This document shows positions 1-16,425 of a DNA stretch of 18,076 nt, piece after piece. Origin of the DNA: a virus (lineage: Duplodnaviria; Heunggongvirae; Uroviricota; Caudoviricetes). The translations under genes and the position numbers were made by a program. Within the stretch, counting starts at the first letter, position 1; each line of letters starts with the position of its first letter. The notes below the pieces were generated by a model. It made no database searches. It was not told the DNA's origin and saw nothing but the letters and a program-made list of their open reading frames with translations. The stretch is taken from the IMG/VR virus record IMGVR_UViG_2731957842_000001, positions 1 through 18,076 of that record, one strand, 5' to 3'.

Positions 1-553
1 GGCCAGTTCCTTTCCGGCCTGATAAACGCTGTTTTACTGCGTTAAGTTTTGCCTGTTGTGCACTGACACGCGCCAGCGCGTCGCGCTGACGGTTAAGCTG
101 GGCAGTGGTTTCACTGATACGGTTTTTCAGTCCCTGCTCATCATGTGCAAGATTGCGGGTATTAATTCCCACAGCGGCCAGTTCCCGCTGCTGGCGTTTA
201 ACGGAATCTGTCAGGCGGTTATATTTCGCCTGTAAGTCCTCCGCCGCACGCTTTGCGGATTCCAGCACTTTCGCCTGAGCACGGGTCGGACGTTCGGTGT
301 TTTTAAACTGTGTGGCAAGGGCTTCGGCCTCCTGCCGTGCCTTTTCAAGTGCATGACCAGTCACGGCGAGCTGTGCACTGGTCTTGCGGAACCCCTCAAT
401 ACGGGATGCGTGACCGTTCAGCTCGCGCAGTGATTTTTGTGTTTCCCGGATATCCCCCGACAGCGACTTGCTCGCTGTGCGGATGGATTTAAACGGGCGG
501 GATGCCTGGTCAACAGCCCTGAGCAATACCTGTAATTTTACATTGTTACTCAT
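1..553 (-). CDS. T: Tail tape measure protein, N-terminal part; 3' end runs off the window
   Basis: Minus-strand ATG at 553 (reverse complement of cat 551-553) opens a frame reading MSNNVKLQVLLRAVDQASRPFKSIRTASKSL..., coiled-coil-like and matching the recalled P2 gpT N-terminus. It sits immediately downstream of E/E', as in P2. Not in the ORF track because it is truncated by the window edge. Confidence 0.8.
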   Translation of the reverse strand, partial: MSNNVKLQVLLRAVDQASRPFKSIRTASKSLSGDIRETQKSLRELNGHASRIEGFRKTSAQLAVTGHALEKARQEAEALATQFKNTERPTRAQAKVLESAKRAAEDLQAKYNRLTDSVKRQQRELAAVGINTRNLAHDEQGLKNRISETTAQLNRQRDALARVSAQQAKLNAVKQRLSGRKGTG

Positions 554-973
554 TCGTGTTTCCGCTTCGCCGGAGCGCCTTTTCGCGCCATGTGATGAGT
601 TCGGTCAGGCTCATGGGATACAGTTCTGATGGCGGCCAGTGAAATATCACAGCCACATCTGCCATCAGGTCATCGACCGAGAGATTTTTCGGAAACGTCA
701 CTGCACCGAGTTCGGCGACAAAAAACCGACCACCTTACCGGCCAGCGCCACAAGGTCAGGCAGTTCCAGCGCGGCGACTTCCTGCTCGGTCAGCATCGGT
801 GCCGTCATGCGCGGCAGCACCTTAATCAGTGCATCGACTTCAGAGTTCGCGACCGCAGCCAGACTGACACCGCGCAGCGTCCCGGCATTGGGTTTCATCA
901 GCGTGACCTGTTCGATAACCTGCTCACCACGCTTGACCGGATTGTCCAGGGTAATCACATTTTCTTTGTTCAT
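546..973 (-). CDS. E+E': Tail assembly chaperone E+E', -1 programmed frameshift product (~142 aa)
   Basis: Hand translation in the -1 frame from the T_TTT_TTG heptamer continues ...VAELGAVTFPKNLSVDDLMADVAVIFHWPPSELYPMSLTELITWREKALRRSGNTNE to a stop at 546-548, overlapping the T start. Length is as recalled for P2 E+E'. Confidence 0.7.
698..973 (-). CDS. E: Tail assembly chaperone gpE (zero-frame product)
   Basis: 91-aa ORF MNKENVITLDNPVKRGEQVIEQ...; same length and position (between FII and T) as P2 E, and contains the slippery site near its 3' end. Confidence 0.85.
   Translation of the reverse strand: MNKENVITLDNPVKRGEQVIEQVTLMKPNAGTLRGVSLAAVANSEVDALIKVLPRMTAPMLTEQEVAALELPDLVALAGKVVGFLSPNSVQ
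719..725 (-). other. Slippery heptanucleotide T_TTT_TTG for the E/E' -1 ribosomal frameshift
   Basis: Plus strand 719-727 is caaaaaacc; on the minus strand the zero-frame codons are GGT TTT TTG, giving an X_XXY_YYZ heptamer at the conserved tail-chaperone position. Confidence 0.7.
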
Positions 974-2810: not shown

Positions 2811-3404
2811 CTATTTGTCCCGGTTGGCTAAGGGATGACACAATTTATTCTTTGTCGCTGATGAGGGAAATTTTTTATAGAGCGTGGACAGGCCAATATC
2901 AAAAATCAGCGCCACACGTTGACGAGATTCCCCCGCAGCCAGCAACCGTCCGACCTGCTCCCACTCACTCGCGGTGAGTTTCGGACGCCTGCCACCAATA
3001 CGACCTTTAGCTCTGGCCGCTTCCAGTCCGGCGCGTGTCCGCTCGACAATGAGTTCTCGCTCCATTTCAGCCAGGGCACCCATCACATGAAAGAAAAAAC
3101 GCCCCATCGGCGTGCTGGTATCAATAGCATCCGTCAGACTGCGAAAATTAACGCCGCGTTCGCGCAGTTCCTCAACCAGAATGACCAGATGCCGCATACT
3201 ACGCCCCAGCCTGTCCAGCTTCCAGACTACCAGAGTGTCACCTGCTGATAATGTTCTGAGCAGTTTTTTCAGTCCCGGTCGGTCGGACTTCGTGCCGCTG
3301 ATTTTATCCTCAAAAATCCGCTCGCATCCTGCGCACTCCAGCGCGTTACGCTGCAATTCCGTGTTCTGGTCATTTGTTGACACGCGTACATAGCCAATAA
3401 GCAT
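2811..3404 (-). CDS. Site-specific DNA invertase, serine recombinase of the Hin/Gin/Pin/Cin (Din) family
   Basis: MLIGYVRVSTNDQNTELQRNAL...LVVWKLDRLGRSMRHL...FRSLTDAIDTSTPMGRFFFHVMGALAEMERELIVERT...GRIGGRRPKLT is near-identical in pattern to Gin/Pin, with the catalytic Ser in RVST and a C-terminal HTH. I take the second ATG (3404) as the start because AGGGGG sits 6 nt upstream of it; the track ORF starts 2 codons earlier at 3410. Confidence 0.9.
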   Translation of the reverse strand: MLIGYVRVSTNDQNTELQRNALECAGCERIFEDKISGTKSDRPGLKKLLRTLSAGDTLVVWKLDRLGRSMRHLVILVEELRERGVNFRSLTDAIDTSTPMGRFFFHVMGALAEMERELIVERTRAGLEAARAKGRIGGRRPKLTASEWEQVGRLLAAGESRQRVALIFDIGLSTLYKKFPSSATKNKLCHPLANRDK

Positions 3405-3459
3405 GAGCATCCCCCTGAATAAAAACCGGAGATGATGCCTGTTGCACGTAATCTCTGCA

Positions 3460-3485
3460 TTTTCTTAAACGTTGGTTTGGGAGAA
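3460..3485. other. Candidate gix/hix/pix-like inversion crossover site (degenerate 12-2-12 inverted repeat)
   Basis: TTTTCTTAAACG-TT-GGTTTGGGAGAA; the right half matches the recalled gix right half GGTTTTGGATAA at 10/12, the left half only about 7/12. It lies 56 bp upstream of the invertase start and at the 5' end of the tail-fibre fragment, where Din crossover sites are found. Confidence 0.35.
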
Positions 3486-3486
3486 G

Positions 3487-3690
3487 GTTCGGCATTACCC
3501 GTTGGCGTGCCTGTTCCGTGGCCTTCCGCCACTCCGCCAACAGGCTGGCTGAAATGCAACGGTGCCGCTTTTTCTGCTGAAGAATACCCGGAACTGGCAA
3601 AGGCTTATCCGACAAATAAATTGCCTGATTTACGTGGTGAGTTTATTCGTGGCTGGGATGACGGGCGTGGAGTGGATAGCCGGTCTTCAA
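3487..3690 (+). pseudogene. Remnant of an alternative tail-fibre C-terminal (variable) segment, truncated
   Basis: Plus-strand frame encodes ...PVGVPVPWPSATPPTGWLKCNGAAFSAEEYPELAKAYPTNKLPDLRGEFIRGWDDGRGVD, the conserved motif I recall just distal to the crossover site in Mu S/S', P1 S and e14 tail fibres. No N-terminal constant part precedes it and it runs straight into antisense gene R; the track ORF 3432..4043 is a chimera. Confidence 0.6.
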
Positions 3691-9624: not shown

Positions 9625-11397
9625 ATGACCATCACCACAGACACCACTCTTTTACACGACCCGCGTCGTCAGGCGGCGCTGCTGTACTGGCAGGGGTTTT
9701 CCGTGCCGCAGATTGCCGCCATGTTGCAGATGAAACGCCCGACGGTGCAGAGCTGGAAACAGCGCGACGGCTGGGACAGCGTTGCCCCCATCAGCCGTGT
9801 CGAAATGAGCCTGGAAGCGCGGCTGACCCAGCTCATCATCAAACCGCAGAAAACCGGCGGTGACTTCAAGGAAATTGACCTGCTGGGACGCCAGATTGAA
9901 CGACTGGCGCGGGTCAACCGCTACAGTCAGACCGGCAACGAGGCAGACCTTAATCCGAACGTCGCTAACCGCAACAAAGGCGGGCGTCGCAAACCGAAAA
10001 AGAATTTTTTCAGTGACGAAGCCATCGAAAAGCTGGAGCAGATTTTCTTTGAGCAGTCTTTCGACTATCAGTTGCACTGGTATCGCGCCGGGCTTGAGCA
10101 CCGCATCCGCGATATACTGAAATCCCGCCAGATTGGCGCAACGTTTTATTTTTCCCGCGAGGCGCTGCTGCGCGCCCTGAAAACCGGCCATAACCAGATT
10201 TTTCTGTCGGCCAGTAAAACGCAGGCGTATGTGTTCCGCGAATACATCATCGCCTTTGCCCGTCTGGTTGACGTTGACCTGACCGGTGACCCGATTGTCC
10301 TGGGCAATAACGGCGCAAAACTAATTTTTCTCGGCACCAACTCCAACACCGCACAGAGCCATAACGGCGACCTGTACGTCGACGAGATTTTCTGGATCCC
10401 GAATTTTCAGGTACTGCGTAAGGTGGCATCAGGTATGGCCTCACAGAGTCACCTGCGTTCGACCTATTTCTCCACCCCGTCCACGCTGGCGCACGACGCC
10501 TACCCGTTCTGGTCAGGTGAACTGTTCAACCGGGGACGCGCCAGCGCCGCCGAACGCGTGGAAATCGACGTCAGTCATAACGCCCTTGCCGGTGGGCTTC
10601 TCTGTGCGGACGGCCAGTGGCGGCAGATTGTCACCATTGAGGACGCCCTGAAAGGTGGCTGCACGCTGTTCGACATTGAGCAGCTCAAACGTGAAAACAG
10701 CGCCGACGATTTTAAAAACCTGTTCATGTGTGAATTTGTTGACGACAAGGCGTCGGTGTTCCCGTTCGAGGAGCTGCAACGCTGCATGGTCGACACGCTG
10801 GAAGAATGGGAAGACTATGCGCCGTTTGCCGCCAATCCGTTCGGCTCCCGCCCGGTATGGATTGGTTACGACCCGTCACACCGTGGCGACAGCGCCGGAT
10901 GCGTGGTGCTGGCACCGCCGGTGGTGGCCGGTGGCAAATTCAGAATACTTGAGCGTCACCAGTGGAAAGGCATGGACTTTGCCACCCAGGCGGAATCCAT
11001 CCGCAAACTCACCGAAAAATATAACGTTGAATACATCGGGATTGATGCCACCGGCCTCGGTGTCGGCGTGTTCCAGCTCGTGCGCTCGTTCTATCCCGCC
11101 GCGCGCGATATCCGCTACACGCCGGAAATGAAAACCGCAATGGTGCTCAAGGCAAAAGACGTTATCCGCCGTGGCTGTCTGGAATATGACGTCAGCGCCA
11201 CCGACATCACCAGCTCGTTCATGGCTATCCGCAAGACCATGACCAGCAGCGGACGCAGCGCCACCTATGAGGCCAGCCGCAGCGAGGAAGCCAGCCACGC
11301 CGACCTCGCCTGGGCAACCATGCACGCCCTGTTAAATGAGCCACTCACCGCCGGTATCAGCACTCCGCTGACATCCACCATTCTGGAGTTTTACTGA
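9625..11397 (+). CDS. P: Terminase large (ATPase) subunit
   Basis: 590-aa product from the ATG at 9625, with GAGG 6 nt upstream; the stop overlaps the Q start (TGATG). Length and sequence match recalled P2 gpP. Confidence 0.9.
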   Translation: MTITTDTTLLHDPRRQAALLYWQGFSVPQIAAMLQMKRPTVQSWKQRDGWDSVAPISRVEMSLEARLTQLIIKPQKTGGDFKEIDLLGRQIERLARVNRYSQTGNEADLNPNVANRNKGGRRKPKKNFFSDEAIEKLEQIFFEQSFDYQLHWYRAGLEHRIRDILKSRQIGATFYFSREALLRALKTGHNQIFLSASKTQAYVFREYIIAFARLVDVDLTGDPIVLGNNGAKLIFLGTNSNTAQSHNGDLYVDEIFWIPNFQVLRKVASGMASQSHLRSTYFSTPSTLAHDAYPFWSGELFNRGRASAAERVEIDVSHNALAGGLLCADGQWRQIVTIEDALKGGCTLFDIEQLKRENSADDFKNLFMCEFVDDKASVFPFEELQRCMVDTLEEWEDYAPFAANPFGSRPVWIGYDPSHRGDSAGCVVLAPPVVAGGKFRILERHQWKGMDFATQAESIRKLTEKYNVEYIGIDATGLGVGVFQLVRSFYPAARDIRYTPEMKTAMVLKAKDVIRRGCLEYDVSATDITSSFMAIRKTMTSSGRSATYEASRSEEASHADLAWATMHALLNEPLTAGISTPLTSTILEFY

Positions 11398-12430
11398 TGA
11401 GCAAGAAAAAAGGGAAAACACCGCGACCTGCGGCAAAAACAATCACCGCCAGCGCCCCGAAAATGGAAGCATTCACCTTTGGCGAGCCGGTGCCGGTACT
11501 CGACCGCCGTGACATTCTGGATTACGTCGAGTGCATCAGTAACGGCAGATGGTATGAGCCGCCGGTCAGCTTTACCGGTCTGGCAAAAAGCCTGCGTGCT
11601 GCCGTGCATCACAGCTCACCGATTTACGTCAAACGTAATATTCTGGCTTCAACGTTTATCCCGCACCCGTGGCTTTCCCAGCAGGATTTCAGCCGCTTTG
11701 TGCTGGATTTTCTGGTGTTCGGTAATGCGTTTCTGGAAAAGCGTTACAGCACCACCGGTAAGGTCATCAGACTGGAAACCTCACCGGCCAAATATACCCG
11801 TCGTGGCGTGGAGGAGGATGTTTACTGGTGGGTGCCGTCCTTCAACGAGCCGACAGCCTTCGCGCCCGGCTCCGTGTTTCATCTGCTGGAGCCTGATATT
11901 AATCAGGAGCTGTACGGCCTGCCGGAATATCTCAGCGCCCTTAACTCTGCCTGGCTGAATGAGTCGGCCACGCTGTTCCGCCGCAAGTATTACGAAAACG
12001 GCGCACATGCCGGATACATCATGTACGTCACCGATGCCGTGCAGGACCGCAACGATATCGAAATGCTTCGCGAAAACATGGTTAAGTCGAAAGGCCGCAA
12101 CAACTTTAAAAACCTGTTTCTCTATGCCCCGCAGGGGAAAGCTGACGGCATTAAAATTATCCCGCTCAGTGAAGTGGCAACGAAGGACGATTTTTTAATA
12201 TCAAAAAAGCCAGTGCCGCAGACCTGCTGGATGCGCACCGCATCCCCTTTCAGTTGATGGGCGGCAAGCCGGAGAACGTCGGGTCGTTGGGTGATATTGA
12301 GAAAGTGGCAAAGGTCTTTGTCCGCAATGAGCTTATCCCGTTACAGGACAGGATCCGCGAGATAAACGGCTGGCTCGGTCAGGAGGTCATCCGCTTTAAA
12401 AACTACTCACTGGACACTGACAACGGCTGA
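11397..12430 (+). CDS. Q: Portal protein, reading frame interrupted by an apparent 1-nt deletion in a T-run at 12191-12196
   Basis: The frame from ATG 11397 reads 266 aa of portal sequence, then ...KDDFLISKKPVPQTCWMRTASPFS to a stop at 12257. The -1 frame from 12197 reads NIKKASAADLLDAHRIPFQLMGGKPENVGSLGDIEKVAKVFVRNELIPLQDRIREINGWLGQEVIRFKNYSLDTDNG to a stop at 12428-12430, just before a terminator. Joined with a T7 run, the product is about 344 aa, as recalled for P2 gpQ. Confidence 0.8.
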
Positions 12431-12435
12431 ACATC

Positions 12436-12457
12436 GCCGCCTGCGGGCGGCTTTTTT
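12436..12457 (+). terminator. Rho-independent terminator after the P-Q operon
   Basis: GCCGCC-TGCG-GGCGGC stem-loop followed by TTTTTT, beginning 6 nt after the Q stop. Confidence 0.6.
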
Positions 12458-12599
12458 ACACCCCGTCATCACGCACTCACACGCTCACCACCGCACAAAA
12501 CACCCCGCAGACACACCAATGCCCCGGCGCACAATCTAAACGCTGTCACGACGCGCTCAGACGCTGAAAAAATAAAATCAGCACCACCGCCAGCGCGCA

Positions 12600-12618
12600 G
12601 TGCTTTCCCCGCCTCGCC
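12600..12618. other. cos cohesive-end sequence of the P2/186 type
   Basis: GTGCTTTCCCCGCCTCGCC is the reverse complement of GGCGAGGCGGGGAAAGCAC, which I recall as the 19-nt P2 cohesive end. It sits just distal to Q, where cos lies in P2. Confidence 0.7.
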
Positions 12619-12742
12619 CGCCCGCTTCATGGGGCGGTTTTAATGCAAATGCATTCTGGTTCCATGCATTTTGATGGCAATAGTATACGCACAAAATTTA
12701 TCGGACATAACGTATGCATTTTCATGCACCGTCATGCCCCCC

Positions 12743-12830
12743 TTGACAATCCCATGATTTTTTAGAGCAAGCTTGCATTCCATACTGTCAAAACACATTA
12801 TATACTTGGGCTTTTTATACAAGGACTTAA
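12743..12830 (+). promoter_or_regulatory. Candidate promoter/RBS region for the ATPase-partner operon
   Basis: TTGACA at 12743-12748 and TATACT at 12801-12806, but their spacing is not canonical; AAGGA Shine-Dalgarno at 12821-12825, 7 nt before the ATG. The exact promoter is unresolved. Confidence 0.3.
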
Positions 12831-12832
12831 AC

Positions 12833-14531
12833 ATGTTAACAAAATTCTCAGGAAAAAATTACAAAGCATTTAAGGATTTCTCGTTCGAGATTAAGCCTAT
12901 AACGGTGTTATTAGGAGCAAATAGCTGTGGAAAAAGCGCACTTATCAATTCACTTTTGATGTTTTCACAAACAGCAGAAACAATAAACATTTCCGAATCA
13001 GCACTAAGATTAAATGGAAATAAGGTTGGCATGGGGGAATCTCTGAATATCATCAGAGAAAAAACCCAAAAACACCTTAAGTTTTTCATTTGAAATATCA
13101 AATCAACAATCCTTGCGATACGACATTCACAAAAGCAAGCGCGATTTTATTGACTTCTATTTTTCACTTGCCAGATATTTGGGACAAGTATTAAAAAGTG
13201 CGGCATCAACAACACCCAGCAGTGATTTGATGAACAATAGTTTTAATGACACATTAAAAACTATTGATAAAATCGAATCAAACTATATGTTTAGAGACAC
13301 TTACAACTCTGCACAACTTAAAGCCATTTCTGATGGTGTTTGCGAATTATTATCAAAATACAGACAACTACCTGAGGATGTTGCAAAAAAATCCCGTCCA
13401 CATCTCGATCGACTAGCAGAGTTTGTTAATATTGTTTCTTTCGAAAACATTCAAAGCAGCTTAATGTCATTAGCATCTCTTAGTGCAAAAAAAATATCCC
13501 CCAAACGAATTGATTATGATTTTTGCTTTGATAAAAAATCAAACCAACTAAAAATAACCGGGTGCGCTTTTCATAATCACTTAGGCGAATGCATCACCAG
13601 CTTGGGTATATCTAAAGGGAAATTCTTTTTACGCTCTGACGTTATTAAAAGAACTCACTTAAGCAAATCCCGAGAAGAGATATCGAAGCTAATCAATTTC
13701 AATTCACTATCCCTTATAGATGAAATTCAAAACGTTAATTTCATTGACAAACACATTGTGTCCCTTGACCCATTCGCTAGTTTATTCTGCAACTATCTTG
13801 AGAAGCTAACAAAAGCATTTATCTCTGAGTTTAATGGTGTAAAAATAAATCATGTCAGCCCATTAAGGGCATTCCCTCAACGCTACTATCTTTTAGACAA
13901 GTCTATACAGCATACTTTTCTTAATGTTCTGGAAGGTAATGAACTGGCTGAGGTGTTAAAGAAAAATCCAGAAATAAAAAATAAAATTAATATTTTACTG
14001 GCAAAGTTCAATCTTGAAGTAGATGTCGTCATGGTTAATGACATCATTCATAAGATCAACATCACCCAAGATTCCATCTCTCTAGAGTTAACAGATGTAG
14101 GTTTTGGCATATCTCAGGTTTTACCTATTTTGGTTCAAGCCTATTTGTCCCCTAAAAATTCCATCACTATTATAGAACAACCAGAAATTCACTTACACCC
14201 CAAAATGCAAGCATGGCTCACTGACGCTTTAATTCACATTGCATTAAAAGAGAAAAAAAGATTTATTATTGAAACTCACAGTGACGCTCTAATCAGAAGA
14301 ATCAGATTGCGTATTGTTGATACTAAATCGAGCCTTACACCAAATGATGTAATGCTTTGCAATCTTGAAAGAAAATCTGAAGATAATGTCACTAGTTTAA
14401 AAGTGATTCCTATTACCGAGGATGGAGATATAACTTGGCCTGCGGATTTTTTAGACATTGAAATTCAAGACACACTTCAAATCCAGAATTTTAAAGTTAA
14501 AAAACATCTTAAAAGTAAAGGTCTGTTATAA
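12833..14531 (+). CDS. SMC/OLD-type ABC ATPase (AAA_15/AAA_21-like), frame interrupted in an A-run at 13059-13064; ~565 aa if bridged
   Basis: N-terminus MLTKFSGKNYKAFKDFSFEIKPITVLLGANSCGKSALINSL carries a Walker A (GANSCGKS). This frame stops at 13093, while a second frame is open from 13047 and continues ...KPKNTLSFSFEISNQ... to 14531. The C-terminal region has a signature-like GFGISQ, Walker B ITIIEQPE and H-loop HLHP, with a long helical insert between. The region is ~30% GC. Its stop is immediately followed by the next gene's ATG. Confidence 0.75.
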
Positions 14532-15533
14532 ATGTTTTACACTCATTGTATAAGCCCTGAATTCATGGGGCTTCACATCAAAAATATGGACACTTTTATT
14601 TCGATTTTTATGGGTGTTTTAATGAATCCGAAGAACCAGATCGTTTTAGATGAGGCAGGAATAATTGAACAACAATATTTATTAAGTCTTAATAACGACA
14701 AATCAGCTTTTTTGCTCTACCAAACTTGGGAGAAAGCCATAAAATCAGACAGTTGCCAAGGTAAACTATTACTTTCTTCTCCCAATATATCATCTTCAAT
14801 ACATGATTATGTAGTTTCAGCTATTTCATGTGCTATAACCACAAACGACAAAACAATATTAACTGCTGATAACAATTTGTACAGCGCGGCTTTACCTGTT
14901 TTATCCAGACAAAGAATTCACTTACTGGGAATAAGTCATCTAACCCCTCAATCATCAGCAAGCATTATAGGTAAACATATGTCTTTTACAAAACTTGATT
15001 ATGATATTGCCTGGTCTCTAGAGAGATTGGTTCGGCTTCATCGAAAAGGGAACACAGAGGATGACTTAAATGACTTACTCCGTGAATACTTGCTTGCGAA
15101 GGAATACGAGATAAAAGACCAAACTCGTGAAGGCATATCTACAAGTGGAAAGAGCGCCGGAGAACTTGATATTATTGTTGAGCACAACTCAAACATGTTT
15201 GCAATACTAGAAGCAATGAAGCTTAGTCAGATAAACAAGGAGTATATCACCATTCATTACAAAAAAATGCTTGTCAATTACAACCCTCTGGACGTAAAGA
15301 GATTATTCCTCATTACTTATTACGATGGAAAAAAATTCGATACTTGGTGGGATAACTACGTTGAATTTGTAAAAAGTATAGACTACACCACATTAAACCC
15401 TGAAGTCGAAAACACAACATTTGTTAACACAGAAAAGATTAACACGAACTTTGGGAATGTAAAAAAAATGCTACACCACGGTCTGGCTAATGGTGAACAA
15501 TTTTCCGTCATACATTATGCAGTAAAACTGTAA
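14532..15533 (+). CDS. Partner protein of the ATPase, function unknown; candidate effector
   Basis: 333-aa ORF starting 1 nt after the ATPase stop (TAA-ATG), with the same low GC. No family recognised by eye. Weak motifs: VLDEAG plus a downstream DYD (possible Toprim/DUF4435-like) and GELDIIVEH...ILEAMK (possible restriction-endonuclease-like). Followed by a strong terminator. Confidence 0.65.
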   Translation: MFYTHCISPEFMGLHIKNMDTFISIFMGVLMNPKNQIVLDEAGIIEQQYLLSLNNDKSAFLLYQTWEKAIKSDSCQGKLLLSSPNISSSIHDYVVSAISCAITTNDKTILTADNNLYSAALPVLSRQRIHLLGISHLTPQSSASIIGKHMSFTKLDYDIAWSLERLVRLHRKGNTEDDLNDLLREYLLAKEYEIKDQTREGISTSGKSAGELDIIVEHNSNMFAILEAMKLSQINKEYITIHYKKMLVNYNPLDVKRLFLITYYDGKKFDTWWDNYVEFVKSIDYTTLNPEVENTTFVNTEKINTNFGNVKKMLHHGLANGEQFSVIHYAVKL

Positions 15534-15540
15534 CTCTTAT

Positions 15541-15569
15541 AACGTGGTGATTGATATCACCACGTTTTT
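15541..15569 (+). terminator. Rho-independent terminator after the two-gene module
   Basis: Perfect 10-bp stem AACGTGGTGA / TCACCACGTT with a 6-nt loop, followed by TTTTT, 8 nt after the partner gene stop. Confidence 0.65.
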
Positions 15570-16323: not shown

Positions 16324-16425
16324 AATGCGCCAGTCCGTGGTTCTGGTGATATGAATATGACGCGCGCCGAGATGCGGCGCGTAATTCAGCCTGTTGTTCC
16401 TGAATAAAATCTACGTTGTCCGGCA

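What the first reader, a model, noticed from the sequence alone, without database searches (positions are those of the whole stretch)
13047..13093. Frame break in the ATPase at an A6 run: two overlapping frames that would encode one continuous protein
The N-terminal frame (Walker A) stops at 13093, while the downstream frame is open from 13047. Removing one A from the run at 13059-13064 (gagAAAAAAccc) gives a continuous ...GESLNIIREKPKNTLSFSFEISNQ.... The gene is therefore either inactivated, subject to slippage in the homopolymer, or the base is a sequencing error.
Basis: seen in the sequence. Interest (0 to 1): 0.5.

Follow-up and report, generated by a model that had tools for sequence, protein, structure and literature searches.

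The report
Likely 454 homopolymer error splitting ATPase
The broken ATPase gene is really in the deposited sequence, but it is most likely a base-calling error of the old 454 sequencing chemistry (two A-runs each read one base short), because the same gene is intact in every other genome examined but one, which is split at a different A-run.

Summary
The frame break is present exactly as described: frame A runs from ATG 12833 to TGA 13091-13093, and frame B is open from 13047 to 14531. The proposed repair is wrong in detail. Thirteen other assemblies of the same cassette (99.7-99.8% identity in the complete genomes) read A7-CCC-A6 (three read A7-CCCC-A5) where the window reads A6-CCC-A5. The window therefore lacks one A in each of two adjacent runs (net -2) and does not carry one extra A. 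The intact protein has 566 aa (...IIREKNPKNTLSF...).

The window is the whole contig JTFE01000060.1 of E. coli VL2874. That genome is a Roche 454 Titanium/Newbler draft (depth 25, read error 1.17%). The portal gene 870 bp upstream is broken the same way (T7 to T6). An independent re-assembly that is otherwise base-identical (SRR2070767) shortens two further A-runs. The truncated products occur in no other sample.

Best explanation: 454 homopolymer under-calls in a 34% G+C gene (confidence about 0.85). Main rival: real slippage mutations in a prophage that also carries two private large deletions (about 0.11). Programmed frameshifting, phase variation and two separate genes are not supported.

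The gene is an AAA_15/AAA_21 ABC-type ATPase. It is paired with an unannotated 333-aa protein predicted to be a PIN-like plus restriction-endonuclease-like nuclease, in the P2 gpQ-gpA defence hotspot.

The parts
12833..13093 (+). N-terminal fragment of the ATPase as it reads in the window (86 aa, Walker A GANSCGKS, out-of-frame tail KTQKHLKFFI*)
   Evidence: Translation. Called as an 86-aa AAA_15 product in GCA_001441335.1.
13047..14531 (+). Second frame, carrying the rest of the ATPase. It holds the insertion domain, the putative Walker B IIEQPE and the putative H-loop ETHS (motif assignments by eye). The annotation calls only a 433-aa product, from 13230.
   Evidence: Translation. Pfam AAA_15/AAA_21. 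Gene calls.
13059..13064 (+). A6 run that is A7 in every other assembly (first missing base)
   Evidence: Alignment. Allele census: A7 in 13 of 13 other assemblies.
13068..13072 (+). A5 run that is A6 in the closest relatives (second missing base)
   Evidence: SNP context places the window with the A7-C3-A6 alleles (2-3 SNPs in the cassette), not with the A7-C4-A5 alleles (about 9 SNPs).
14532..15533 (+). 333-aa partner gene starting directly after the ATPase stop codon. Predicted N-terminal PIN-like domain plus C-terminal PD-(D/E)xK restriction-endonuclease-like domain. Intact in the window.
12191..12196 (+). T6 run that is T7 in all relatives. It splits the portal gene Q into 11397-12257 and 12254-12430. 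Same kind of -1 change, 870 bp upstream of the ATPase break.
   Evidence: The portal is 344 aa and intact in all other loci.
12618..12637 (+). Terminator-like hairpin upstream of the cassette, at the cos-proximal end of the structural genes
15541..15566 (+). Terminator-like hairpin (11 bp stem plus T-run) directly after the partner gene. It closes the two-gene cassette.

Best explanation
The frame break is most likely a consensus base-calling error of Roche 454 pyrosequencing and not a property of the organism.

In flow-based sequencing a homopolymer is read as one light pulse, and long A/T runs tend to be under-called (established knowledge). Here the true A7-CCC-A6 was written as A6-CCC-A5. 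That is two under- bp apart and a net loss of two bases. It throws the 566-aa ATPase out of frame after residue 76, so that the N-terminal frame stops 10 codons later.

The real gene is then a single intact AAA_15/AAA_21 ABC-type ATPase. It forms a two-gene operon with a 333-aa predicted nuclease, in the cos-proximal gpQ-gpA cargo hotspot of a P2-like prophage. It is therefore probably the sensor/motor half of an anti-phage system.

Shown: the break, the intact homologues, the sequencing platform, the parallel errors, and the private distribution of the allele. Inferred: that most reads under-called at these sites, and the defence role of the cassette.
For: 1. Platform. The window is the whole contig JTFE01000060.1 of GCA_001441335.1, which is E. 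coli VL2874 (PMC4725725 Table 1). It was sequenced only with Roche 454 GS FLX Titanium and assembled with Newbler 2.6 (PMC4556653). Mean depth was 25 (sd 26), inferred read error 1.17% and Q40+ bases 99.41%, with depth, read error and Q40+ poorer than for VL2732, the only other strain visible in the excerpt.
2. Type of change. All three frame-breaking differences from relatives are -1 changes in A/T runs of 6-7 bases (T7 to T6 at 12191-12196, A7 to A6 at 13059-13064, A6 to A5 at 13068-13072). Every other gene whose ORF length I compared with relatives is full length.
3. Read-set noise. A separate Logan assembly of run SRR2070767 has 0 mismatches to the window over 5,684 bp. It carries the same three deletions plus two more -1 changes in A-runs (A6 to A5 at about 11406, A8 to A7 at about 13487), at sites where Newbler agrees with the references. 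Homopolymer length in these data therefore depends on the assembler and is biased downward.
4. Private allele. The exact 86-aa, 433-aa and 286-aa truncated products occur only in this assembly, and the 86-aa product also in its re-assembly, within a 153-billion-gene index. The identical 333-aa partner occurs in 315 index blocks. Nine of the 10 loci shown have the 566-aa ATPase, and all 10 have a 344-aa portal.
5. Adjacency. The SNP context puts the window 2-3 SNPs from A7-C3-A6 alleles, so two independent changes in neighbouring runs are needed. That is expected for correlated flow errors. It is unlikely for independent mutations, since about 40 runs of 6 or more bases are available.
6. Published behaviour of the platform. 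454 consensus homopolymer errors are biased to A/T, rise with run length and can frameshift 20% or more of genes in low-G+C DNA (PMC3277595). The cassette is 34% G+C and the ATPase has 10 runs of 6 or more bases.
7. Prior from related elements. Pseudogenes of defence genes are rare in P2 hotspots, even in defective elements (PMC13586616).
Against: - No reads or quality values could be inspected, so the under-call is inferred and not seen.
- Both assemblies agree on A6-CCC-A5, so most reads must carry it.
- Longer runs in the same gene (A8 at 13487, A7 at 13385 and 14253) are called correctly by Newbler.
- The prophage carries two large private deletions: about 8 kb of tail-fibre/baseplate genes and 2.2 kb of gpA. 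If these are real it is defective, and real decay of the portal and cargo genes would not be surprising.
- Homopolymer slippage is also the commonest real frameshift mutation.
Confidence: 0.85

Rival explanations
1. The changes are genuine mutations. In strain VL2874 the P2-like prophage is decaying, and replication slippage has removed one base from T7 in the portal gene and one each from A7 and A6 in the ATPase. The ATPase would then be a true pseudogene and the defence cassette would be dead.
For: - The contig lacks about 8 kb of tail-fibre/baseplate genes and 2.18 kb of gpA relative to complete relatives. The gpA junction sits at a GTAA microhomology.
- Neither junction is found in 5,426 complete E. 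coli genomes, so the element looks defective.
- Two assemblies of the same strain agree on the three -1 alleles.
- A/T runs are natural slippage hotspots (established knowledge).
Against: - The data are 454-only.
- The re-assembly shows further, clearly spurious -1 calls in the same stretch.
- Two independent hits in adjacent runs 9 bp apart are improbable for real mutations when the cassette differs from its nearest relatives by only 2-3 SNPs.
- The alleles are seen in no other sample.
- Defence pseudogenes are rare in P2 hotspots, even in defective elements (PMC13586616).
Confidence: 0.11
2. The A-tracts are a contingency (phase-variation) switch. Slippage in the runs would turn the ATPase-nuclease system off and on within populations, and VL2874 was caught in the OFF state.
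For: A second assembly (CP024228) has the same ATPase split at a different run, A8 to A9 at window position about 13487. The gene has 10 runs of 6 or more bases.
Against: - Tract lengths are invariant in all other assemblies: A7 in 13 of 13, A8 in 12 of 13.
- Tracts of 6-8 A are shorter than those of typical phase-variable loci (general knowledge).
- The window's state needs two changes, not one.
- One deviant comes from a sequencing chemistry with homopolymer problems. I could not find the method used for CP024228.
- The runs are what a 34% G+C, Lys/Asn-rich gene would be expected to contain.
Confidence: 0.02
3. The full-length protein is made from the broken sequence by programmed recoding, either +1 ribosomal frameshifting or transcriptional slippage on the A-run.
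For: Homopolymeric A-runs can support transcriptional slippage and -1 frameshifting. A genuine programmed -1 site (gpE/E+E', G_TTT_TTT_G) lies elsewhere in this window.
Against: - The break is not conserved. Twelve of the 13 near-identical homologues, and the 48%-identical ORF555 of P2-EC5, are single continuous ORFs.
- Frame B is +1 relative to frame A, which would need a rare +1 shift. I saw none of the signals known for such sites.
- The 98 nt downstream fold no better than shuffled sequence (z -0.37).
Confidence: 0.01
4. The two ORFs are separate genes with independent starts.
For: The automatic annotation-aa and 433-aa products.
Against: - One Pfam AAA_15 match spans the junction.
- Walker A lies in the first piece and the remaining ATPase motifs in the second.
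- All homologues, down to 48% identity, are fused.
- The 433-aa call begins 137 nt after the first ORF's stop codon, at an internal ATG, leaving a stretch that is conserved coding sequence in homologues.
Confidence: 0.005

Closest known systems
Roche 454 / flow-chemistry homopolymer under-call errors in consensus assemblies (for example Luo et al. 2012, PMC3277595)
   Same: A 454-only Newbler draft. All changes are -1 changes in A/T runs of 6-7 bases within low-G+C DNA. They produce artificial frameshifts in genes that are intact elsewhere. A second assembly of what appear to be the same reads disagrees at further homopolymers.
   Different: Two errors sit in adjacent runs and are shared by both assemblies, so most reads must be wrong at these sites. 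That could not be verified without the flowgrams.
PARIS (AriA AAA_15/AAA_21 ATPase + AriB DUF4435/TOPRIM), a hotspot defence system of P4 satellites
   Same: The ATPase matches the PADLOC AriA profile over its full length (E 8.5e-28) and the same Pfam families that Rousset et al. used to detect AriA. It is a two-gene ATPase-plus-predicted-nuclease cassette next to cos in a P2/P4-type element.
   Different: The partner has no DUF4435/TOPRIM match and is predicted to be PIN-like plus PD-(D/E)xK. The ATPase is longer (566 aa) than the AriA profile (373 positions); aligned with P2-EC5 ORF555, residues ~100-335 are poorly conserved. It is not a PARIS member.
Menshen NsnB, PDC-M55A and HEC-03B ATPases (PADLOC candidate and validated systems)
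   Same: These are the best PADLOC hits to the ATPase: NsnB 2.7e-52, PDC-M55A 3.9e-40, HEC-03B 1.3e-39.
   Different: For all three the best-scoring matched stretch covers only the C-terminal part of the ATPase (residues about 312-560). The partner family matches none of the companion genes of those systems.
ORF555/ORF333 of prophage P2-EC5 (AM157364; E. coli ECOR5)
   Same: The same two-gene cassette in the same kind of phage. ORF555 is 48% identical over its full length and ORF333 is 42% identical. The gene order is the same and the two genes are closely juxtaposed.
   Different: It is a divergent allele, annotated only as hypothetical proteins, and has no frame break.
dnaX-type and P2 gpE/E+E'-type programmed -1 frameshifting on homopolymeric heptamers
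   Same: In intact homologues the zero frame reads GA[A AAA AAC] CC[A AAA AAC], which formally gives two X_XXY_YYZ heptamers. A -1 slip there would end at the same TGA (13091-13093).
   Different: Homologues need no frameshift to make the full protein. There is no downstream structure, and the motif is not conserved as such in P2-EC5. The window's own break would need a +1 shift, not -1.

Membership tests
454 homopolymer base-calling artefact | The sequence derives from flow-based (pyrosequencing) data without polishing by another chemistry | tested here: met
   The contig is JTFE01000060.1 of E. coli VL2874. Roche 454 GS FLX Titanium with Newbler 2.6 is the only method described (PMC4556653).
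454 homopolymer base-calling artefact | Each discrepancy with close relatives is a +/-1 length change of a homopolymer, preferentially a long A/T run | tested here: met
   T7 to T6, A7 to A6 and A6 to A5. No frame-breaking indel lies outside homopolymers in 17 kb of alignment.
454 homopolymer base-calling artefact | Homopolymer lengths are unstable between assemblies of the same reads | tested here: met
   The Logan assembly of SRR2070767 has 0 mismatches to the window but two extra -1 changes in A-runs. That SRR2070767 is the VL2874 454 run is inferred from sequence identity, not from metadata.
454 homopolymer base-calling artefact | Raw flowgrams or an orthogonal chemistry give the longer run | not testable with these tools
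Programmed ribosomal frameshift or transcriptional slippage site | The two-frame arrangement is conserved in homologues | tested here: not met
   The ORF is a single 566-aa reading frame in 12 of 13 other assemblies (annotated or called as one gene in 3 of the 4 complete genomes fetched and in 9 of 10 further loci). The one exception is broken at a different site. P2-EC5 has a single 555-aa ORF.
Programmed ribosomal frameshift or transcriptional slippage site | A stimulatory RNA structure or other recoding signal lies next to the slip site | tested here: not met
   The 98 nt downstream give an MFE of -9.4 kcal/mol, z -0.37 against shuffles.
Phase-variable contingency locus | Tract length is polymorphic among strains or populations | tested here: not met
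   The first run is A7 in 13 of 13 other assemblies and the second is A6 in 10 of 13 (A5 in the three C4-allele assemblies, by a synonymous A-to-C substitution). The only other deviant is A8 to A9 in CP024228.
ABC-type AAA_15/AAA_21 ATPase (OLD/AriA/GajA-like clade) | Full-length match to the family profile, with Walker A and the C-terminal ATPase motifs in one chain | tested here: met
   Pfam AAA_15 at 76 bits (cut-off 32) over residues 2-487, and AAA_21 at 65 bits (cut-off 27). Weak PDB hit to the OLD-family nuclease 6p74.
PARIS (AriAB) | The partner is a DUF4435/TOPRIM protein (AriB) | tested here: not met
   The partner has no Pfam or PADLOC hit. The fold search gives PIN-like and REase-like domains, not TOPRIM.
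Menshen (NsnABC) | NsnA and NsnC companion genes are present | tested here: not met
   There is only one partner gene, and its family of 31 members has no Nsn hit at E <= 1.
P2-like prophage gpQ-gpA cos-proximal cargo (defence) hotspot | Located between portal gene Q and replication gene A, with atypical composition and variable content | tested here: met
   Portal at 11397-12430, cassette at 12833-15533, gpA remnant from 15835. G+C is 34% against 56.5% for the structural genes. The hotspot is defined in PMC9122126.
Anti-phage defence system (functional claim) | Experimentally shown protection against phage | not testable with these tools
   No experiment on this cassette was found in the two hotspot papers read. 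It is absent from PADLOC v2.0.0 as a system.

The most novel reading that the evidence does not exclude
The A-runs of this hotspot ATPase are genuine mutational switches. Slippage in them (A7/A6 here, A8 in CP024228) would reversibly silence an uncharacterised ATPase plus PIN/REase-like nuclease defence system carried by P2-like prophages. That would be a phase-variable phage-encoded immunity gene. A weaker version is that VL2874 holds one of the rare true pseudogenes of a P2-hotspot defence system.
Probability: 0.03. Interest if true: 0.5.

Novelty: not a real feature. Interest (0 to 1): 0.06.

Why it matters
As a frameshift it matters little. It is best treated as an assembly error that should be corrected (A7-CCC-A6, and T7 in the portal gene) before the contig is used for gene-content or pseudogene counts. 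It is also a reminder that 454-era drafts inflate apparent pseudogenes in AT-rich cargo genes.

The cassette itself has some modest value. It is an intact-elsewhere ATPase paired with a predicted PIN-like plus restriction-endonuclease-like protein. It sits in the known P2 defence hotspot, is absent from PADLOC, Pfam and NCBIfam as a system, and its exact partner protein is indexed in 315 blocks of the public collection. That makes it a reasonable untested candidate for an anti-phage system.

Tried and rejected
- A pattern scan of GTDB species-representative genomes, allowing A6/A7 and A5/A6 variants, found nothing. This is uninformative, because that collection holds one genome per species.
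- Looked for the deletion junctions (about 3678 and 16384) and the truncated products in other genomes, hoping for an independently sequenced relative of this defective prophage in which to read the A-runs. None exists in 5,426 complete E. coli genomes or in the exact-protein index.
- Considered a single 2-bp 'AC' deletion from the A7-C4-A5 allele as a one-step real mutation. Rejected as the favoured path because the window's flanking SNPs (12889, 12988, 13103 and others) match the A7-C3-A6 group.
- Tested the -1/+1 recoding idea. There is no conservation and no downstream structure.
- Tried to find the sequencing method for CP024228, the other split allele. The literature search gave nothing useful.
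- Sequence searches for the partner protein all came back empty: Pfam, PADLOC (single sequence and 31-member family), NCBIfam, PHROGs and PDB sequences. Only the fold comparison gave a lead.

Full report
OBSERVATION

The sequence reads as the first-stage reader said.
- An ORF starts at ATG 12833 (MLTKFSGKNYKAF...GANSCGKS...) and stops at TGA 13091-13093 after 86 codons.
- A second frame, +1 relative to the first, is open from 13047 (after TGA 13044-13046) to 14531.
- The overlap holds an A6 run (13059-13064), then CCC, then an A5 run (13068-13072).
- Removing one A gives a 565-aa ORF. Pfam AAA_15 matches it in one stretch, residues 2-487 against profile positions 3-374 of 374 (76 bits, cut-off 32), and AAA_21 also matches.
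- The Walker A motif lies in the first piece. The conserved C-terminal ATPase core (my reading: Walker B IIEQPE, H-loop ETHS) lies in the second piece.
The two ORFs are therefore halves of one ATPase domain and not a chance overlap.

WHAT THE INTACT GENE LOOKS LIKE

Five complete E. coli genomes hold the same 1.76-kb stretch at 99.7-99.8% identity. I fetched four of them.
- In three the ATPase is one 566-aa CDS (WP_069914504.1 or a near-identical protein), followed directly by a 333-aa hypothetical protein.
- In the fourth (CP024228) the ATPase is split at a different site.
- The identical partner protein occurs in 315 blocks of the public gene index. Of the 10 loci shown, 9 have a 566-aa ATPase, and all 10 have a 344-aa portal gene.

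The alignment and an allele census over 13 other assemblies show A7-CCC-A6 in 10 assemblies and A7-CCCC-A5 (a synonymous CCA to CCC change) in three. Only the window and two copies of the same strain read A6-CCC-A5.

The window is therefore two bases short, not one base long. The true peptide is IIREKNPKNTLSFSFE.

Within the cassette the window differs from A7-C3-A6 alleles by 2-3 SNPs. It differs from the A7-C4-A5 alleles by about 9 SNPs, including sites that flank the break. The ancestral state is therefore A7-C3-A6. No single contiguous deletion converts that into A6-C3-A5, so two separate -1 events in neighbouring runs are required.

WHERE THE SEQUENCE COMES FROM

An exact look-up of the 86-aa product returned two contigs.
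- The first is the window itself. It is the whole 18,076-bp contig JTFE01000060.1 of GCA_001441335.1.
- JTFE00000000 is E. coli VL2874, a bovine-mastitis ST10 isolate (PMC4725725 Table 1).
- The genome paper states that these genomes were sequenced with Roche 454 GS FLX Titanium and assembled with Newbler 2.6 (PMC4556653).
- For VL2874 the assembly had 141 contigs, mean read depth 25 (sd 26), inferred read error 1.17% and Q40+ bases 99.41%.
- The second contig is a Logan assembly of run SRR2070767.

SIGNS OF A PLATFORM ARTEFACT

1. The portal gene Q, 870 bp upstream, is broken in the same manner. T7 in all relatives is T6 in the window (12191-12196), which splits a 344-aa gene into 286-aa and 57-aa pieces.
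2. Across about 17 kb alignable to a complete relative, the only frame-breaking differences are these three -1 changes in A/T runs. The other indels are one in-frame 6-bp change, four intergenic ones and one more near the left contig end, in the tape-measure gene, that I did not examine further. Every other gene whose ORF length I compared has its expected length.
3. The Logan contig is identical to the window at every one of 5,684 aligned positions. It carries the same three deletions and shortens two more A-runs: A6 to A5 near 11406 and A8 to A7 near 13487. At both sites Newbler agrees with all references. So in this read set homopolymer length depends on the assembler, and every deviation is an under-call.
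4. The truncated products (86-aa, 433-aa and 286-aa) exist in no other sample.
5. Luo et al. 2012 showed that 454 consensus homopolymer errors favour A/T, grow with run length and can frameshift 20% or more of the genes in low-G+C DNA (PMC3277595). The cassette is 34% G+C, against 56.5% for the structural genes, and the ATPase has ten runs of 6 or more bases.
6. The adjacency of the two errors fits correlated flow errors in the same reads. This step is my inference from how the chemistry works. For independent real mutations, a second hit in the neighbouring run out of about 40 candidate runs would be a coincidence.

THE MAIN RIVAL: REAL MUTATIONS

The contig is not a complete prophage. Relative to strain XJ34 it lacks about 8 kb of tail-fibre, baseplate and part of the S gene, and 2.18 kb of replication gene A.
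- The gpA junction sits on a GTAA microhomology.
- Neither junction is seen in 5,426 complete E. coli genomes.
- The truncated gpA remnant product is also private to this assembly.

If these deletions are real, the element is defective, and real slippage mutations in the portal and cargo genes would not be surprising. Both assemblies also agree on the three alleles.

Against this rival:
- The 2026 survey of P2/P4 hotspots found that pseudogenes of defence genes are rare (about 2% of P2 pseudogenes). [quoted passage not shown]
- The need for two adjacent hits, and the demonstrably noisy read set, both favour the artefact.

I put the artefact at about 0.85 and real mutation at about 0.11.

OTHER READINGS

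- Programmed recoding is not supported. Near-identical homologues and the 48%-identical ORF555 of prophage P2-EC5 (AM157364) are continuous ORFs. The window would need a +1 shift. The 98 nt downstream fold no better than shuffles (z -0.37).
- In intact homologues the zero frame contains two formal X_XXY_YYZ heptamers (A_AAA_AAC, twice), and a -1 slip would end at the same TGA. Such strings are expected in a Lys/Asn-rich, 34% G+C gene, and nothing else supports a function for them.
- Phase variation is not supported. Tract lengths do not vary among the other assemblies, except for A8 to A9 in CP024228. I could not find the sequencing method for that genome.
- 'Two separate genes' is refuted by the domain match across the junction and by the fused homologues.

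WHAT THE GENE IS

The cassette (12833-15533) lies between portal gene Q and the remnant of gpA. This is the cos-proximal hotspot of P2-like phages that holds old/tin in P2 and many defence systems elsewhere (PMC9122126). Terminator-like hairpins at 12618-12637 and 15541-15566 bracket it.

The ATPase:
- Its best PADLOC hits are NsnB (2.7e-52), PDC-M55A and HEC-03B, each with its best-scoring stretch confined to the C-terminal part of the protein.
- It matches AriA over the full length (8.5e-28).
- PHROG 21420 and the OLD-family nuclease 6p74 are weaker relatives.

The 333-aa partner:
- It has no hit in Pfam, PADLOC, NCBIfam, PHROGs or PDB sequences.
- It belongs to a small family of 32 clusters; the members that carry a source name are from Enterobacterales and Pseudomonas, and every name given is 'hypothetical protein'.
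- An AlphaFold2 model built on 31 sequences has mean pLDDT 85.
- From the secondary-structure layout I assign the PIN-like fold to about residues 1-135 and the PD-(D/E)xK-like fold to about residues 190-333.
- Invariant acidic and basic residues (E211, D213, E217, E227, K245) lie in the second domain.

The cassette therefore works like the ATPase-plus-nuclease defence pairs (PARIS, Gabija, Septu). It is a member of none of them, because the partner is not TOPRIM/DUF4435 and no Nsn companions are present. Its defence role is an inference from location and domain content and has not been tested.

VERDICT

The frame break is real in the database record, but it is most probably not real in the bacterium. 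It should be scored low. Decisive tests are inspection of the 454 flowgrams, or Sanger/Illumina resequencing of VL2874 across 12150-13120.

Noticed in passing
window 11397-12430 (break at 12191-12196): The portal gene Q is also split (286 aa + 57 aa) by a T7 to T6 change. It is intact (344 aa) in all relatives. Same kind of -1 homopolymer change as in the ATPase.
   Followed up: yes
window about 2844-3678 and 16381-16384: Relative to complete P2-like prophages, the contig lacks about 8 kb (tail fibres H/G, baseplate V/W/J/I, most of S) and 2.18 kb of replication gene A (junction on a GTAA microhomology). Neither junction occurs in 5,426 complete E. coli genomes. The prophage is either defective in VL2874 or the contig is mis-joined.
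   Followed up: partly
window 14532-15533: The 333-aa partner of the ATPase has no match in any profile library. It is predicted (pLDDT 85) to be an N-terminal PIN-like domain plus a C-terminal BglII/BamHI-like PD-(D/E)xK domain. Together with the ATPase it is an undescribed candidate defence pair in the P2 hotspot. A 42-48% identical copy is ORF555/ORF333 of P2-EC5 (L018).
   Followed up: partly
L001/L011 (CP024228) at the position equivalent to window 13487-13494: Another assembly has the same ATPase split into 227-aa and 349-aa CDSs by an A8 to A9 change. It could be an error of that assembly or a real variant. The sequencing method was not found.
   Followed up: partly
window 698-726, minus strand: The conserved P2 gpE/E+E' programmed -1 frameshift site (G_TTT_TTT_G, just upstream of the E stop at 698-700) is present with its T6 run unchanged. 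It is a genuine recoding site in the same window.
   Followed up: partly
window 2811-3410, minus strand: A 199-aa serine recombinase (invertase-type) sits next to tail-fibre fragments, as in P2-like phages that carry an invertible tail-fibre segment. It lies right at the edge of the 8-kb deletion.
   Followed up: partly
window 12737-12742: An intergenic C6 run upstream of the cassette varies among relatives (C5, C6 or interrupted by T). This is natural variation or further homopolymer noise. It has no coding consequence.
   Followed up: no
L007 (Logan SRR2070767) at window-equivalent positions 11406 and 13487: The re-assembly of the same strain shortens two further A-runs (A6 to A5, A8 to A7). 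This breaks the portal start region and the ATPase a second time, and shows how unstable homopolymer calls are in this read set.
   Followed up: yes
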